In this document: positions 9,356 to 63,149 of the stretch, piece by piece
Position numbering within the stretch: position 1 is the first letter of the stretch
Layout: each line of letters starts with the position of its first letter
Assembly (NCBI GenBank): GCA_964545795.1
Contig: CAZJGC010000001.1
Span: 72,585-135,733 of the forward strand
DNA: 63,149 bases
Reading direction: 5' to 3'
Source of the DNA: an uncultured archaeon
GTDB lineage: Archaea; Aenigmatarchaeota; Aenigmatarchaeia; Aenigmatarchaeales; DAIDAN01
Translations under genes and position numbers: made by a program
The notes under the pieces: model-generated
Seen by the model: only the letters and a program-made list of their open reading frames with translations
Told to the model about the DNA's origin: nothing
Databases searched by the model: none

Positions 9356-9422
9356 AAATATAGATGGGTTAGGGGATTAAAAAAGATTTTCGCAGAGGGT
9401 TGATAAGGGTTAGAGATGTGCT

Positions 9423-9564
9423 TGGTGGGCGAGGCCGGATTTGAATGCCGAGAACCCTATGCAAGGGTCTTACCAGCGACCACCCGGTTATCAGCCGGGC
9501 ACTCCTTCAGTGAACCTATAAGAAATCATTCTTTTAGGTTCTAACCAGGCTAAGCTACTCGCCC
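9423..9564 (-). tRNA. tRNA-Ile (anticodon GAU) with encoded CCA and two non-canonical introns (about 37 nt in the D-arm, 9503-9539; 27 nt at the T-stem/T-loop junction, 9446-9472)
   Basis: Manual fold of the reverse complement. Acceptor GGGCGAG/CTCGCCC, discriminator A, CCA. Anticodon arm CCCGG-CUGAUAA-CCGGG. The T arm GCUGG-UUCAAAU-CCGGC forms only after removing TAAGACCC...CGGCA. The D stem GCUU/GAGU forms only after removing a 37-nt hairpin insert. Confidence 0.75.
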
Positions 9565-20318: not shown

Positions 20319-20420
20319 TGGTGCGCCGTGCGAGATTTGAAAACGCGGAAAACCACTCGCGTCGCAAGCTGTCTGCTTTTTATTGGCAAGCTTGTATCCT
20401 AACCACTAGACTAACGGCGC
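20319..20420 (-). tRNA. tRNA-Gly (anticodon GCC), encoded CCA, two short introns (13 nt at 37/38, 20371-20383; 14 nt at the T-stem/T-loop junction, 20342-20355)
   Basis: Acceptor GCGCCGU/ACGGCGC. Anticodon arm CAAGC-UUGCCA|A-GCUUG. T arm GCGAG-UUCAAAU-CUCGC forms only after removing UGGUUUUCCGCGUU. The mature length is 75. Confidence 0.8.
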
Positions 20421-20461: not shown

Positions 20462-20594
20462 TGGCGCCGAGGGCAGGATTTGAATGCAGAGATTTTCTTC
20501 TTTTCATGAAAAAAACTTACCTGCACGAGCAAAGCTCACCAGTTGCCTCTTACCTCTCGAGACTGGCGCATTAACCTGGTTCTGCCACCCCGGC
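20462..20594 (-). tRNA. tRNA-Ser (anticodon CGA), encoded CCA, two introns (11 nt at 37/38, 20545-20555; 35 nt at the T-stem/T-loop junction, 20485-20519)
   Basis: Acceptor GCCGGGG/CCUCGGC. Anticodon arm CCAGU-CUCGAG|A-ACUGG. Long variable arm GAGC-UUU-GCUC. T arm GCAGG-UUCAAAU-CCUGC forms after removing UAAG...CUGCA. The mature length is 87. Confidence 0.8.
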
Positions 20595-54541: not shown

Positions 54542-54616
54542 CTTCTGCAACTGTTTCAGCCATAAATAGAATACAACAGAAAAAATATTTAAAAAATACC
54601 GCCTATTTATTTGCAT

Positions 54617-54855
54617 GCCTCAGTAGCTCAGCTGGTGGAGCGTTAAACCAATGTTCGCTAAACCTTGGTAAGGTAAAGGCCGAGGGTTCAAAATAAGGGG
54701 CTGTCCAAAACATGCAACCCCTTATCAACCCTTTTGAAGAGCATGAAAAATAAGGGAAGGTGCAGAACTTGAAATCCCTTATCAACCCTTAAAAAAGCGG
54801 GGCTGTCCAGAACATGCAACCCCTTATTTTGTTGAGAATCCCTCCTGAGGCTCCA
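54617..54855 (+). tRNA. tRNA-Thr (anticodon GGU), encoded CCA, two non-canonical introns (17 nt inside the anticodon-stem 5' strand, about 54645-54661; about 146 nt inside the T-loop, about 54691-54836)
   Basis: Acceptor GCCUCAG/CUGAGGC, discriminator U. D arm GCUC-AGCUGGUG-GAGC. After removing AAACCAAUGUUCGCUAA the anticodon arm is UUACC-UUGGUAA-GGUAA. T arm GAGGG-UUCA|AAU-CCCUC. The mature length is exactly 76. Confidence 0.75.
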
Positions 54856-61327: not shown

Positions 61328-62059
61328 TTAATCAGCCACTTCAACTCCGTTGAAAACCACTTTCCCTGACAGCTTATCATAGTTTCTTTTTAAAGTATTT
61401 TCAGGAACTATTGAAATTGAATTGATTGCTGCGGAAAGTTCCATTCCTAATATGTTAGATATTGAAGCAAGAGCGCGCGGGTTTCTCATTTCCCATTTGC
61501 TTTCAGCTCCTGAACAGATTACCATGTTTGCACCCAACCTTTTGCAAAGCCTTATGTTTTCTGCTATTCTTGTCATAACAAATATTCTTGATTTTTTGTG
61601 CGATTGAAGCATTTCCTTGAAGTTAACCTCTATAAGCACGGAATTTTTGCTTGCCTGTTTTATGCAGTAGGCATCCAAGCCATTATCCTTTCTTTCAAAT
61701 TCGGGATGAGCCAGAATATCTACTTTTGGATTTTCGCACGCTGCCCTGTTTATCTTATAATCTCCGCCATAAACAACAACAATAGCAACTTTTTCTCTTA
61801 CAAGATTTACTATTCTGCGAAGCTCGGCAGGATTTTTTGCAACTATCTCAACTCCTGTCGCAACCTCAAAATCTTCATTTTCCTTCTTTAACTTGTTCAA
61901 AACTGATAAATTCTTCTTTAATTTTTCCATTCCGTTATAATGGTCGCATATTGCTATTCCGCTATATCCAAGTTTTTTTGCAAAATCTATTAACTCTTCA
62001 GGGGAAGACTCTCCTATAGACAAACTGCTGTTGACATGCAAATCATAATAATTGCTCAT
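61328..62059 (-). CDS. rnp3: RNase P protein component 3 (Rpp30, PHP-like barrel)
   Basis: YDLHV at the N-terminus. The size and the position directly upstream of Pop5 fit. Confidence 0.75.
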   Translation of the reverse strand: MSNYYDLHVNSSLSIGESSPEELIDFAKKLGYSGIAICDHYNGMEKLKKNLSVLNKLKKENEDFEVATGVEIVAKNPAELRRIVNLVREKVAIVVVYGGDYKINRAACENPKVDILAHPEFERKDNGLDAYCIKQASKNSVLIEVNFKEMLQSHKKSRIFVMTRIAENIRLCKRLGANMVICSGAESKWEMRNPRALASISNILGMELSAAINSISIVPENTLKRNYDKLSGKVVFNGVEVAD

Positions 62060-62194: not shown

Positions 62195-62972
62195 TTGGGC
62201 GGCGGCTTAGAAAGATTTATTAAAAGATTTTAATTACATATTACATTATGAAGAAACTTCAATCTGTTTTAGATAAGTTAGAAAAATGTTGTAATCCAGT
62301 CTCAATATTTTTATATGGATCAAGAGCAAGAACAGATTTCTTAAAAAGAAGTGATTTTGAAATAGGTGTGTTAATTCCAAAGAGAAGATATGTAGGTAGA
62401 AGTGAAATTAAAAAACTAATTAATGAAAAGGGATTTAATATCTATCCTTTTGAATATGAAGATTTTTTAAAATACAAAATAGATACTCCTTTTCAAAAAA
62501 CAATTTATCTGAGAGATTTAATTCTTAGTGGAAGAACCCTAAGAGGTAAAAAAGTAATTGAAAATATGAAACCCCCAGAAATAAGAGATCTTGATGTTAT
62601 TCAAAGAATTAGATTTGATTTAGGATTTGCTCTTGCTTCTATAATTTCATACAGAAACGATGACAAGATAACTGCTTCTTTAGAATTTTCAAAATCATGT
62701 CTATTTGGTACTAGATGTTTGGAGATACTAAAACTAAAAAAGTTCCCGTTAACATATAATGAGATTTACAACCTTTCTAAAAATTTAAAACTGGGAGAAT
62801 ATCAAGCTCTAGTTAAAAATGCTTATAATTTGAGATTAGGAAAAATCAAACTTAAAGAAGAATATTTATTTAAAAATATATCTTTTCTTAATGAATTCAT
62901 TGAACCTAAACTAGTAATATATTTTGAAAGATACGGAAATAAAATTTTAATAAAATAATCGCCGCCGCCCAA
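62195..62972. repeat. 12-bp perfect inverted repeat TTGGGCGGCGGC / GCCGCCGCCCAA bracketing the NTase ORF
   Basis: Left arm 62195-62206, right arm 62961-62972. Both arms are the most GC-rich dodecamers in their neighbourhood. Confidence 0.85.
62248..62958 (+). CDS. Nucleotidyltransferase-domain protein (MNT-like N-terminus, helical C-terminal half)
   Basis: FLYGSRARTDFLKRSDFEIGVL shows the GS-x9-11-D-x-E/D pattern of minimal nucleotidyltransferases. Confidence 0.6.
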   Translation: MKKLQSVLDKLEKCCNPVSIFLYGSRARTDFLKRSDFEIGVLIPKRRYVGRSEIKKLINEKGFNIYPFEYEDFLKYKIDTPFQKTIYLRDLILSGRTLRGKKVIENMKPPEIRDLDVIQRIRFDLGFALASIISYRNDDKITASLEFSKSCLFGTRCLEILKLKKFPLTYNEIYNLSKNLKLGEYQALVKNAYNLRLGKIKLKEEYLFKNISFLNEFIEPKLVIYFERYGNKILIK

Positions 62973-63149
62973 CTCTCACTCGCTTCGCTCGTTCGGGTCT
63001 AACGACCTCGCACAACAGCCGTTAAAAGACTTCGCAACCTTGCAGGCTGCTCCGTCCAAATTTTTGGCTTCGCCAAAAACTTCGTTTAACGGCATATGTT
63101 ATGTGAAATAAAAATGGGTCGCGGGAGTGCCTTCGGCACAGATTGTCTC

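What the first reader, a model, noticed from the sequence alone, without database searches (positions are those of the whole stretch)
54617..54855. tRNA-Thr with an intron inside the anticodon stem and a 146-nt T-loop intron homologous to the tRNA-Ala intron
Removing 17 nt from the 5' strand of the anticodon stem and about 146 nt from within UUCA|AAU yields a perfect 76-nt tRNA-Thr(GGU). The large insert has the same plan as the tRNA-Ala intron. Two direct copies of a GGGGCUGUCCA(A/G)AACAUGCAACCCCUUAU hairpin flank a core. That core shares a ~40-nt near-identical stretch with the Ala intron: AAUAAGGGAA(A/G)GUGCAGA..(A/U)UGAAAUCCCUUAUCAACCCUUA. So homologous structured elements sit at different positions (37/38 versus T-loop) of different tRNAs, always in tRNA sense. 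This is what a mobile or functionally selected intron family would look like.
Basis: partly seen in the sequence, partly recalled or inferred. Interest (0 to 1): 0.75.

Follow-up and report, generated by a model that had tools for sequence, protein, structure and literature searches.

The report
Twice-interrupted tRNA-Thr with modular hairpin intron
This is a real threonine tRNA gene of a tiny DPANN archaeon, split by two protein-spliced introns; the long one is built from repeated hairpin modules, and a relative of it sits in the alanine tRNA, which extends a known kind of archaeal intron spread and does not reveal a new mechanism.

Summary
Removing 17 nt (window 54645-54661) and 146 nt (54693-54838) from 54617-54855 gives a 76-nt tRNA-Thr(GGU) that ARAGORN accepts. 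A blind scan for bulge-helix-bulge (BHB) geometry picks the same two junctions: 28/29 (strict BHB) and 59/60 (relaxed hBH).

The 146-nt intron is homologous to the 143-nt 37/38 intron of tRNA-Ala(CGC) at 9703-9845(-). The local alignment scores 74, against 15.4 +/- 2.3 for shuffles.

Both introns consist of three copies of one ~33-nt hairpin module, most of them followed by a CAACCC tail. Orthologous tRNA-Ala introns in two related Aenigmatarchaeota genomes carry one and two modules. Their hairpins are 88-100% identical, while third codon positions of neighbouring genes are only 51-69% identical.

Positions 37/38 and 59/60 are structurally equivalent: each follows the 6th base of a 7-nt UUCR... 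loop on a 5-bp stem. The same intron 3' segment (UGAR) pairs with both loops.

Closest precedents are the 59/60 hBH introns of ARMAN-2 and intron transposition in Thermoproteales. The new points are the lineage, the length and the modular, copy-number-variable build. Any function of the module is unproven. Splicing is inferred, not shown.

The parts
54617..54644 (+). tRNA-Thr(GGU) exon 1: acceptor 5' strand, D arm and the first two bases of the anticodon stem (mature positions 1-28)
   Evidence: Spliced product is accepted by ARAGORN. The junction was chosen by the BHB scan.
54645..54661 (+). Intron 1, 17 nt (AAACCAAUGUUCGCUAA), at 28/29. Strict hBHBh' motif: central helix AGCG/CGCU, bulges UU|A and AA|A, inner helix AAC/GUU, outer helix GG/CC.
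   Evidence: candidate (28,45), H 4 Watson-Crick pairs, h 2, h' 3. Only one of the 151 two-intron combinations tested gave a standard 76-nt tRNA-Thr(ggt), and it uses this candidate.
54662..54692 (+). Exon 2: rest of the anticodon arm (anticodon GGU), variable loop, T-stem 5' strand and T-loop bases 54-59 (UUCAAA)
54693..54838 (+). Intron 2, 146 nt, at 59/60. Relaxed hBH motif: outer helix is the 5-bp T stem, central helix is UUCA (54-57) with UGAG, the 3' bulge is AA|U, and the 5' site AA|A lies at the junction with the intron body.
   Evidence: candidate (76,222), H 3 Watson-Crick pairs plus 1 GU, h 5. A fold with this geometry enforced is within 2.1 kcal/mol of the MFE.
54693..54733 (+). 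Module 1: hairpin AUAAGGGG-CUGUCCAAAACAUGCAA-CCCCUUAU plus tail CAACCCUU. Its 5' arm (with the preceding A's) can also pair over 11 bp with the 3' arm of module 3.
   Evidence: Module CM hit 54689-54733, 61.9 bits. The long-range helix appears in the MFE.
54734..54748 (+). Spacer UUGAAGAGCAUGAAA, homologous to the spacer GAAGAGCAUGCAAAAAC of the two-module tRNA-Ala intron in L015 and to GGGGCAUGCAAAAAC of the window's tRNA-Ala intron
   Evidence: Read; alignment
54749..54790 (+). Module 2 ('core'): hairpin AUAAGGGA-AGGUGCAGAACUUGAAA-UCCCUUAU plus tail CAACCCUU. Its hairpin is 91% identical to the core module of the tRNA-Ala intron.
   Evidence: CM hit 54746-54790, 49.1 bits; identity matrix; local alignment
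54795..54827 (+). Module 3: direct repeat of module 1 with a truncated 5' arm (GGGG only): GGGGCUGUCCAGAACAUGCAACCCCUUAU
   Evidence: 43.7 bits. An independent Logan assembly (L011) starts exactly here and is identical through the end of the tRNA.
54828..54838 (+). Intron 3' adaptor UUUGUUGAGAA. UGAG pairs with T-loop UUCA, and the last two bases lie in the 3' bulge.
   Evidence: Homologous to CUUUAAUGAAAU of the Ala intron.
54839..54855 (+). Exon 3: U60, T-stem 3' strand, acceptor 3' strand, discriminator U and an encoded CCA
54584..54593 (+). TATA-like box (ATATTTAAAAA region), about 25-33 nt upstream of the mature 5' end
   Evidence: Read directly. A TTTAAAT box at the same distance is conserved upstream of tRNA-Ala in the window, L015 and L018. 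Its role as a promoter is an inference.
9664..9881 (-). tRNA-Ala(CGC) gene carrying the homologous intron
   Evidence: spliced 75-nt tRNA-Ala(cgc). An identical sequence is present in the independent JGI assembly L014.
9703..9845 (-). 143-nt intron at 37/38 with three modules. Central helix UUCG (32-35) with UGAA; outer helix is the 5-bp anticodon stem.
   Evidence: candidate (36,179), H 3 Watson-Crick pairs plus 1 GU, h 5. CM hits of 62.4, 29 and 54.3 bits. The BHB-enforced fold is within 1.4 kcal/mol of the MFE.
18106..19554 (-). RtcB RNA ligase gene, the enzyme expected to join the exons and circularise the introns
   Evidence: Pfam PF01139, E 4e-168

Best explanation
Window 54617-54855 is a functional tRNA-Thr(GGU) gene of an Aenigmatarchaeota-like DPANN archaeon, interrupted by two archaeal protein-spliced (BHB-type) introns.

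How it works (inferred). The 239-nt precursor is cut by the tRNA splicing endonuclease at 28/29 (17-nt intron, strict BHB) and at 59/60 (146-nt intron, relaxed hBH). RtcB, encoded in the window, then joins the exons and probably circularises the introns.

What the long intron is. It belongs to a lineage-specific intron family whose body is a tandem array of one ~33-nt hairpin module, most copies followed by a CAACCC tail. Its 3' end carries a short adaptor (UGAR plus 2 nt) that pairs with the first four bases of a UUCR-starting 7-nt loop. The 5' arm of the first hairpin can also pair with the 3' arm of the last one. That helix would draw the two splice sites together.

Why it sits at two different positions. 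The anticodon loop of tRNA-Ala(CGC) (UUCGCAA) and any T loop (UUCAAAU) present the same stem-loop geometry. The same intron therefore fits 37/38 and 59/60.

How it evolved. The family grew by gain or duplication of modules: one, two and three modules are seen in orthologous tRNA-Ala genes. The two introns also exchanged a module: their core modules are 91% identical, whereas their flanking modules are only 67-73% identical.

What is shown: the sequence anatomy, the homology, the structural fit and the conservation. What is inferred: cleavage, ligation, circularisation, the direction and mechanism of spread, and any role of the module beyond keeping a long intron compact and spliceable.
For: - The spliced product is a perfect tRNA-Thr(ggt).
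- A scan for BHB geometry that knows nothing about tRNAs recovers exactly the two junctions needed.
- BHB-competent folds lie 1.4-2.1 kcal/mol above the MFE, and the MFE of the Thr precursor contains the 11-bp closing helix.
- All five tRNA genes in the window are interrupted, by nine introns in total, and each gives a standard tRNA after BHB-guided removal.
- RtcB is encoded in the window.
- The Thr and Ala introns are homologous far beyond chance.
- All six hairpins fit one covariance model. Three stem pairs show compensatory changes, and the covariation score exceeds 500/500 shuffles.
- Orthologous tRNA-Ala 37/38 introns have one module (L018, 54 nt) and two modules (L015/L016).
- The Ala hairpins are 88-100% identical across the three genomes, while third codon positions of the adjacent genes are 51-53% (L015) and 64-69% (L018) identical.
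- Independent assemblies reproduce the Ala intron (L014) and the 3' part of the Thr intron (L011).
- A 59/60 hBH intron is documented in another DPANN archaeon, ARMAN-2 (PMC3239211).
- DPANN endonucleases with the L3 loop are associated with increased tRNA gene disruption (PMC5829648).
Against: - No RNA data: neither splicing nor circular products have been observed.
- The endonuclease gene is not among the window's ORFs of 150 aa or more, and the rest of the genome could not be read.
- The 5' splice site of the long intron does not sit in a clean 3-nt bulge. The inner helix is offset by a 6-nt asymmetry, and RNAfold prefers to pair the A's. Cleavage therefore needs a broad-specificity enzyme.
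- Only two family members exist in this genome fragment, and only Ala orthologues exist in relatives. No orthologous tRNA-Thr was recovered, so the direction and age of the transfer are unknown.
- The near-identity of the Ala intron between the window and L015, two organisms that co-occur in one sample, could reflect recent exchange of the tRNA gene rather than purifying selection.
- The full Thr intron is confirmed in one assembly only.
Confidence: 0.8

Rival explanations
1. The hairpin module is a functional RNA in its own right, and its sequence is what selection preserves. After excision, the long introns would persist as stable, probably circular, structured RNAs, or would serve as protein-binding scaffolds. 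The tRNA genes would merely be the expression and processing platform.
For: - Loop sequences, not only stems, are conserved. The Ala hairpins are 88-100% identical across three genomes whose synonymous sites are close to saturation.
- The core modules of the Thr and Ala introns are 91% identical.
- A 14-nt copy of the module tail also lies 3' of tRNA-Ile.
- BHB-excised introns are circularised by RtcB in other archaea (established knowledge; see also PMC12558985, listed).
Against: - No Rfam family, C/D boxes or K-turn signature is present.
- Module number varies from 1 to 3 between close relatives, and the order of spacer and core differs between the two introns. That is unexpected for a precisely folded functional RNA.
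- No target or partner is identified, and there are no expression data.
Confidence: 0.2
2. The modules are selfish or neutral repeat DNA that expands by slippage or recombination inside introns. It is tolerated because each module folds on itself and leaves the BHB intact. Under this view, the similarity between the Thr and Ala introns comes from DNA-level recombination or gene conversion between introns, not from any RNA function.
For: - Copy number runs 1, 2 and 3 in orthologous introns.
- Module boundaries coincide with the short repeat CAACCC, and the spacer and core are in different orders in Thr and Ala.
- Unrelated tRNA-Gly(UCC) introns in other Aenigmatarchaeota also grow by inserted hairpins: 0, about 66 and about 125 nt.
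- Repeats within one intron are nearly identical (one mismatch), which is typical of recent duplication or conversion.
Against: The very high cross-genome conservation of hairpin sequence, loops included, is hard to reconcile with pure neutrality, unless the tRNA gene was recently exchanged. This rival overlaps largely with the best explanation; it differs only on whether the module sequence is under selection.
Confidence: 0.35
3. The gene is a pseudogene: a tRNA-Thr destroyed by insertion of a miniature inverted-repeat DNA element, with the real tRNA-Thr(GGU) encoded elsewhere.
For: - The insert has inverted terminal arms (AAAAUAAGGGG / CCCCUUAUUUU).
- Standard tRNA finders reject the locus.
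- The rest of the genome was not available to check for an intact copy.
Against: - Both inserts sit exactly where BHB geometry predicts, with an adaptor complementary to the local exon.
- The exons are otherwise flawless, CCA and a TATA-like box included.
- Every tRNA gene in the window is interrupted in the same way.
- The module occurs nowhere else in the 63 kb, in either strand, outside tRNA introns.
- No target-site duplication and no transposase are nearby.
- The same intron is retained at the orthologous Ala site in three genomes.
Confidence: 0.04
4. The three-module array is an assembly artefact caused by the near-identical 29-nt direct repeats.
For: - Other assemblies break at these loci. 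L011 starts at module 3. L015 and L016 end in or just after the last Ala hairpin. L008 and L009 end at the expected tRNA-Thr site.
Against: - The equivalent Ala array is identical in an independent JGI assembly (L014).
- The two Thr repeats differ by one base, and each has unique flanks.
- The 3' 60 nt of the Thr intron are reproduced in the Logan assembly.
- With the array, the intron still closes a correct BHB.
Confidence: 0.04

Closest known systems
Non-canonical BHB/hBH tRNA introns at 59/60 in DPANN archaea (ARMAN-2 pre-tRNA-Cys(GCA) and pre-tRNA-Pro(GGG); Fujishima et al. 2011, PMC3239211)
   Same: - The intron lies between T-loop positions 59 and 60.
- The motif is a relaxed hBH with the T stem as the outer helix.
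- The host is a DPANN archaeon with several introns per tRNA. The relative L018 even repeats the ARMAN-2 53/54 + 59/60 arrangement.
   Different: - Here the intron is 146 nt and built of three hairpin modules.
- It has a homologue at 37/38 of another tRNA.
- The phylum is different (Aenigmatarchaeota-like).
- The endonuclease type is unknown.
[quoted passage not shown] 2010, Mol Biol Evol 27:2233, as summarised in PMC4090602 and PMC4033280)
   Same: [quoted passage not shown] The BHB requirement constrains where an intron can settle.
   Different: - A different superphylum (DPANN rather than TACK).
- Only two members are seen so far.
- The introns are long and modular, with variable module number between relatives.
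- A specific structural reason links the two sites: isosteric UUCR loops and a shared UGAR adaptor.
- I could not read the primary paper. It is not in the library, so the comparison rests on the two reviews.
Intron-saturated tRNA gene sets (Thermoproteales about 70%; Atabeyarchaeia/Freyarchaeia 92-95%, PMC11291895)
   Same: Nearly every tRNA gene is interrupted, many of them several times and at non-canonical positions, and standard predictors miss genes.
   Different: That work does not describe modular hairpin introns or Aenigmatarchaeota. Here only five genes of one 63-kb window could be counted.
Functional RNAs carried in archaeal tRNA introns (the box C/D guide RNA in the euryarchaeal tRNA-Trp intron; my own knowledge, not retrieved here)
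   Same: A long, conserved, structured tRNA intron that could be released as a stable RNA.
   Different: There are no C or D boxes in either intron, and only far sub-threshold Rfam C/D hits.

Membership tests
Archaeal protein-spliced (BHB) tRNA intron | Removing the insert restores a canonical cloverleaf tRNA | tested here: met
   ARAGORN calls the spliced 76-mer tRNA-Thr(ggt). The same holds for Ala, Gly and Ser, and for Ile apart from an ambiguous D-arm junction.
Archaeal protein-spliced (BHB) tRNA intron | Two splice sites, each 2 nt 3' of one strand of a 4-bp central helix, lying in 3-nt bulges and flanked by helices (hBHBh' or relaxed hBH/HBh') | tested here: met
   Intron 1 is strict: H 4 Watson-Crick pairs, h 2, h' 3. 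Intron 2 has H 4 bp (3 Watson-Crick plus 1 GU), h a 5-bp T stem and a clean 3' bulge. Its 5' bulge is not enclosed by an adjacent h', which makes it the relaxed hBH type.
Archaeal protein-spliced (BHB) tRNA intron | The host encodes the splicing endonuclease EndA (a broad-specificity type is needed for non-canonical sites) and the ligase RtcB | tested here: inconclusive
   RtcB is present at 18106-19554. No EndA domain was found among the window's ORFs of 150 aa or more, nor in the flanking annotated loci.
Archaeal protein-spliced (BHB) tRNA intron | Precise excision and exon ligation observed in RNA | not testable with these tools
Transposed tRNA intron cluster (sensu Fujishima 2010) | Significant sequence similarity between introns of different tRNA species | tested here: met
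   About 80% column identity over the full length. Local score 74 against shuffles 15.4 +/- 2.3, maximum 28. The motifs are unique to these two loci in the window.
Transposed tRNA intron cluster (sensu Fujishima 2010) | Members occupy different positions (canonical and non-canonical) | tested here: met
   37/38 in tRNA-Ala(CGC) and 59/60 in tRNA-Thr(GGU).
Transposed tRNA intron cluster (sensu Fujishima 2010) | Gain after divergence of the species: presence/absence polymorphism at orthologous sites | tested here: inconclusive
   The Ala 37/38 intron is present in all three related genomes, with 1, 2 and 3 modules. No orthologous tRNA-Thr was recovered: the contigs of the nearest relative end at the site, and more distant relatives have a tRNA-Gly there.
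MITE / IS-type DNA transposon | Terminal inverted repeats plus a target-site duplication, with copies scattered outside tRNA genes | tested here: not met
   Inverted arms exist, but they are the hairpin arms. No direct duplication of flanking exon sequence is visible at either intron by inspection. The covariance model finds no copy outside the two introns in 63 kb. No transposase is among the annotated ORFs. There are no matches in phage, plasmid or viral collections.
Box C/D sRNA-bearing tRNA intron | C box (RUGAUGA) and D box (CUGA) forming a K-turn | tested here: not met
   Neither motif occurs in either intron. The best Rfam C/D hit scores 14.9 bits against a gathering score of 50.
Any curated Rfam family (including group I/II introns) | Match at or above the gathering score | tested here: not met
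   No match to the intron at the gathering threshold. Only chance-level hits appear at E up to 10.

The most novel reading that the evidence does not exclude
The ~33-nt hairpin-plus-CAACCC module is an autonomous, selected RNA element. It would propagate between tRNA introns, and through a UGAR adaptor between isosteric UUCR loops (anticodon loop and T loop), possibly by reverse splicing of a circular intron. It would be retained because the excised, multi-hairpin circular RNA has a cellular role. This would be a new class of tRNA-intron-borne structured RNA in DPANN archaea.
Probability: 0.15. Interest if true: 0.75.

Novelty: new variant of a known kind. Interest (0 to 1): 0.45.

Why it matters
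It matters for three reasons.

1. Annotation. Standard tools find no tRNA at all in this 63-kb window, although five are present. This supports the published suspicion that 'missing' tRNAs in DPANN genomes are heavily disrupted genes (PMC5829648).

2. Intron evolution. The finding extends 'intron transposition', so far described for Thermoproteales, to DPANN. It also offers a concrete, testable rule for where such an intron can land: any 7-nt loop that starts with UUCR on a 5-bp stem. That rule makes every T loop a potential target for an intron born in the tRNA-Ala(CGC) anticodon loop.

3. A possible mechanism of intron growth. The series of one, two and three modules in closely related genomes, together with unusually strong sequence conservation of the hairpins, shows an archaeal tRNA intron lengthening well beyond the usual <100 nt. 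It raises the question of whether the excised RNA does anything.

Tried and rejected
- **Public collection scans.** Exact-pattern scans for the module tail or loop gave only chance hits: 7 bacterial MAG hits in genome contigs, 2 non-hairpin hits in metagenome contigs and none in viral contigs. The metagenome scan did not return the JGI contig L014, although that contig contains the pattern. The collection therefore does not cover the source sample, and these negatives are weak.
- **Phages and plasmids.** blastn of the intron found nothing.
- **Synteny search for an orthologous tRNA-Thr.** The contigs of the 82%-identity GatA relative end exactly at the site. Relatives at 66-68% carry tRNA-Gly(UCC) or gatB there. 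The NTP-transferase neighbour has no close homologue. Exact-protein look-ups for two window proteins failed, probably because the gene caller chose a different start codon.
- **Extending the genome beyond the window.** This yielded only 2 kb on the left (L014) and nothing on the right.
- **Tandem Repeats Finder.** It reports nothing at either intron; the copies are too diverged or too widely spaced.
- **Nested BHB at the core-module boundaries.** Checked by hand and rejected: the four bases do not pair.
- **K-turn or C/D reading of the hairpins.** Rejected.
- **Candidate tRNA at 12267-12514.** This hit from my acceptor-stem scan is a chance match in a stretch that reads as coding sequence.
Full report

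Yes. Window 54617-54855 (+) reads exactly as described. Removing 17 nt from the 5' strand of the anticodon stem and 146 nt from the T loop gives a 76-nt sequence. ARAGORN folds it into a flawless tRNA-Thr(GGU) with an encoded CCA.

The unspliced gene is invisible to ARAGORN, which finds no tRNA in the whole window. Rfam also misses it at this locus.

The two 29-nt direct repeats differ by one base and are unique to this locus. The 'core' strings occur only here and in one other place, window ~9764-9806 on the minus strand. That place lies inside tRNA-Ala(CGC), 9664-9881(-).

**2. Are the inserts introns?**

I wrote a scanner for the archaeal bulge-helix-bulge (BHB) geometry. It requires a 4-bp central helix formed by the four bases at -6..-3 of each splice site, and it scores the adjoining outer (h) and inner (h') helices. 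It knows nothing about tRNAs. Every combination of candidates was spliced and passed to ARAGORN.

For the Thr gene, only one of the 151 two-intron combinations tested gave a standard 76-nt tRNA-Thr(ggt).
- Intron 1 is gene positions 29-45 (window 54645-54661), at position 28/29. The central helix is AGCG/CGCU, the bulges are UU|A and AA|A, h is 2 bp and h' is 3 bp. This is a strict hBHBh' motif.
- Intron 2 is gene positions 77-222 (window 54693-54838), at position 59/60. The central helix is UUCA(54-57)/UGAG. The outer helix is the 5-bp T stem, and the 3' bulge is AA|U.

The 5' site of intron 2 (AA|A) is not enclosed by an adjacent inner helix, so the motif is the relaxed hBH type. The run of A means the finder's UUCA|AAU and my UUCAAA|U give the same product.

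For tRNA-Ala the scanner finds a 143-nt intron at 37/38 (window 9703-9845, minus strand). The central helix is UUCG(32-35)/UGAA, and the outer helix is the 5-bp anticodon stem.

Folds with these geometries enforced lie only 2.1 kcal/mol (Thr) and 1.4 kcal/mol (Ala) above the unconstrained minimum.

**3. Context: the organism and its other tRNA genes**

The neighbouring genes are archaeal: MCM, RtcB, the GatCA subunits, and Ile-, Arg- and Met-type tRNA synthetases. The best named relatives of GatA are 'Candidatus Aenigmarchaeota/Aenigmatarchaeota archaeon'. The nearest relative is only 82% identical, so this is a poorly sampled DPANN lineage with about 35% G+C.

An acceptor-stem scan and the BHB scanner show five tRNA genes in the window. 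All five are interrupted, by nine introns in total.

| tRNA | Introns |
|---|---|
| Thr(GGU) | 28/29 and 59/60 |
| Ala(CGC) | 37/38 |
| Gly(GCC), 20319-20420(-) | 13 nt at 37/38 and 14 nt at 53/54 |
| Ser(CGA), 20462-20594(-) | 11 nt at 37/38 and 35 nt at 53/54 |
| Ile(GAU), 9423-9564(-) | about 38 nt in the D arm (junction ambiguous) and 27 nt at 53/54 |

RtcB, the ligase that joins BHB-cleaved exons, is encoded at 18106-19554. No EndA domain was found among the window's larger ORFs.

**4. Homology and anatomy of the long introns**

The Thr and Ala introns align end to end at about 80% column identity. The best local alignment covers 52 columns with 46 identities and scores 74. Shuffled sequences score 15.4 +/- 2.3, with a maximum of 28.

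The 'core' is not a different element. The six hairpins (three per intron) are all the same length and align without trouble. They share an 8-bp outer stem, a 1x1 C/A mismatch in the flanking copies, and an inner stem. Three outer pairs show compensatory changes (A-U to G-C and the reverse). The covariation score beats 500/500 shuffles and the neighbouring slid registers, apart from the +3 slide, which reflects the G-run/C-run.

A covariance model built from the nine hairpins finds all six window copies (29-62 bits). It finds nothing else in the 63 kb on either strand.

Each intron is therefore built as: module (hairpin + CAACCC tail), module, module, then an 11-12-nt 3' adaptor.

In both introns the last module has a truncated 5' arm (GGGG or GGGGA only) but a full 3' arm. 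That full 3' arm is perfectly complementary to the full 5' arm of the first module, over 11 bp in Thr and 8 bp in Ala, with an A-U to G-C compensatory difference. RNAfold puts this long-range helix into the MFE of the Thr precursor. I read it as the displaced inner helix that brings the two splice sites of a very long intron together. This is an inference.

**5. Why two different positions**

Position 37/38 follows the 6th base of the 7-nt anticodon loop, which sits on a 5-bp stem. Position 59/60 follows the 6th base of the 7-nt T loop, also on a 5-bp stem.

The Ala(CGC) anticodon loop is UUCGCAA, and the Thr T loop is UUCAAAU. Both start with UUCR. The intron 3' ends are homologous (...CUUUAAUGAAAU and ...UUUUGUUGAGAA). 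In each, the tetramer UGAR pairs with UUCR to make the central helix. The relative L018 uses UGGA.

The two sites are thus isosteric, and the same adaptor fits both. An intron resident in the tRNA-Ala(CGC) anticodon loop is pre-adapted to any T loop. This accounts for the finder's 'different positions' without needing anything exotic.

**6. Relatives**

Collection-wide pattern scans gave only chance hits. The metagenome collection demonstrably does not contain the source sample: L014 carries the pattern but was not returned.

Synteny worked better. Next to the FeS-assembly and metallophosphoesterase genes, two related genomes carry the orthologous tRNA-Ala(CGC).
- **L018** (JGI 3300003543; neighbouring protein 72% identical). 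The 37/38 intron is 54 nt with a single module. The T loop carries a further 42-nt intron at 53/54 and a 12-nt intron at 59/60.
- **L015/L016/L017** (NCBI GCA_964461015.1, and the same JGI and Logan samples as the window; neighbouring protein 64% identical). This intron has two flanking-type modules separated by AACCCC + AUUGAAGAGCAUGCAAAAAC, and no core module. The contigs stop in or just after the last hairpin.
- **The window** has three modules.

The Ala hairpins are 88-100% identical across the three genomes, loops included. Third codon positions of the adjacent genes are 51-53% identical (window versus L015) and 64-69% identical (window versus L018). Either the module sequence is under strong constraint, or the tRNA gene has recently been exchanged between co-occurring populations.

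Within the window, the two core modules are 91% identical, whereas the flanking modules of Thr and Ala are only 67-73% identical. The spacer lies before the core in Thr and after it in Ala. Together with the core-less L015 intron, this indicates that the core module was added, or exchanged between the two introns, later than the flanks diverged. Recombination at the repeated CAACCC tails is the probable route.

Independent assemblies confirm the Ala intron completely (L014). They also confirm the last 60 nt of the Thr intron plus exon 3 (L011).

**7. What it is not**

- No Rfam family matches.
- There are no C or D boxes.
- Phage, plasmid and viral collections give no match.
- No copies lie outside tRNA introns, and no transposase is nearby.

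A pseudogene or MITE reading is therefore unlikely, and an assembly artefact is unlikely for the reasons given above.

**8. Comparison with what is known**

- 59/60 hBH introns, and the 53/54 + 59/60 pair, are documented in the DPANN archaeon ARMAN-2 (PMC3239211).
- DPANN EndA variants with an extra L3 loop are linked to increased tRNA disruption and to incomplete tRNA predictions (PMC5829648).
- Near-total intron occupancy is reported for some Asgard lineages (PMC11291895).
- Archaeal tRNA introns are described as 'less than 100 nt' (PMC4033280).
- Searches of the held literature for tRNA introns in Aenigm(at)archaeota or DPANN found no description of long modular introns.

**9. Verdict**

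The finding is real and correctly read as a doubly interrupted tRNA-Thr whose long intron is homologous to the tRNA-Ala intron. Mechanistically it is an ordinary member of the BHB intron world.

Four things are new:
- the lineage;
- the size;
- the construction from 1-3 copies of one conserved hairpin module;
- the explanation of how one intron fits both the anticodon loop and the T loop.

Whether the module has a function of its own is open. I put that at about 0.15-0.2.

I classify the finding as a new variant of a known kind, with interest 0.45.

Noticed in passing
window 9423-9564(-), 9664-9881(-), 20319-20420(-), 20462-20594(-), 54617-54855(+): All five tRNA genes in the window (Ile-GAU, Ala-CGC, Gly-GCC, Ser-CGA, Thr-GGU) are interrupted, by nine introns in total. 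ARAGORN finds none of them, and Rfam finds one above threshold. Three of the five (Gly, Ser, Ile) carry an intron at 53/54, as does tRNA-Ala in L018.
   Followed up: partly
window 9395-9409 (-): A 14-of-15-nt copy of the module tail (ACCCTTATCAACCCTC) lies 13 nt downstream of the CCA end of tRNA-Ile, outside any intron. It could pair with AUAGGGUU inside the Ile 53/54 intron. Its meaning is unknown.
   Followed up: no
L010 6470-6545, L019 2670-2870, L021 1830-1945 (tRNA-Gly(UCC) beside gatA in relatives with 66-68% identical GatA): The same tRNA-Gly(UCC) has no intron in one genome, an intron of about 66 nt in a second, and one of about 125 nt in a third. The longer one equals the shorter plus an inserted block of about 60 nt of hairpins. 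Growth of introns by hairpin insertion therefore seems general in this phylum.
   Followed up: partly
L018 51-233 (-): The orthologous tRNA-Ala of the nearest relative has three introns (54 nt at 37/38, 42 nt at 53/54, 12 nt at 59/60), whereas the window's tRNA-Ala has one. Intron content differs sharply between genomes whose neighbouring proteins are about 70-80% identical.
   Followed up: yes
L011 8286; L015 1; L016 1; L008 4653 / L009 1877: Short-read assemblies from several sources break at or inside these tRNA introns. One contig starts exactly at the third hairpin of the Thr intron. Two end in or just after the last Ala hairpin. Two end at the CCA end of the expected tRNA-Thr site. This may reflect repeats, or sequence shared between co-occurring strains.
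   Followed up: no
window 62960-63149 (+): A G+C-rich stretch in an A+T-rich genome, with UUCG-capped hairpins (GGCUUCGCC, GUGCCUUCGGCAC) and a long-range inverted repeat (GCCGTTAAA...TTTAACGGC). It runs off the window end and looks like a structured RNA. There is no Rfam match.
   Followed up: partly
window 9574-9702 (+): The sub-threshold Rfam hit to 'HPnc0260 bacterial antisense RNA' (50.8 bits) is spurious. Its 3' part is the reverse complement of the T arm and acceptor of tRNA-Ala.
   Followed up: yes
window 13162-13977 (-), 18106-19554 (-), 61328-62059 (-) and the adjacent gene: Several tRNA-processing genes lie in the same window: a GCD14/TrmI-like methyltransferase (the tRNA m1A58 methyltransferase family), RtcB, and the RNase P protein subunits Rpp30 and Rpp14. 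No EndA was seen.
   Followed up: partly
Metagenome-contig scan versus L014: The public metagenome collection scan did not return JGI contig Ga0256751_1000132, although that contig contains two exact matches to the pattern. Negative results from that scan do not cover the sample the window comes from.
   Followed up: no
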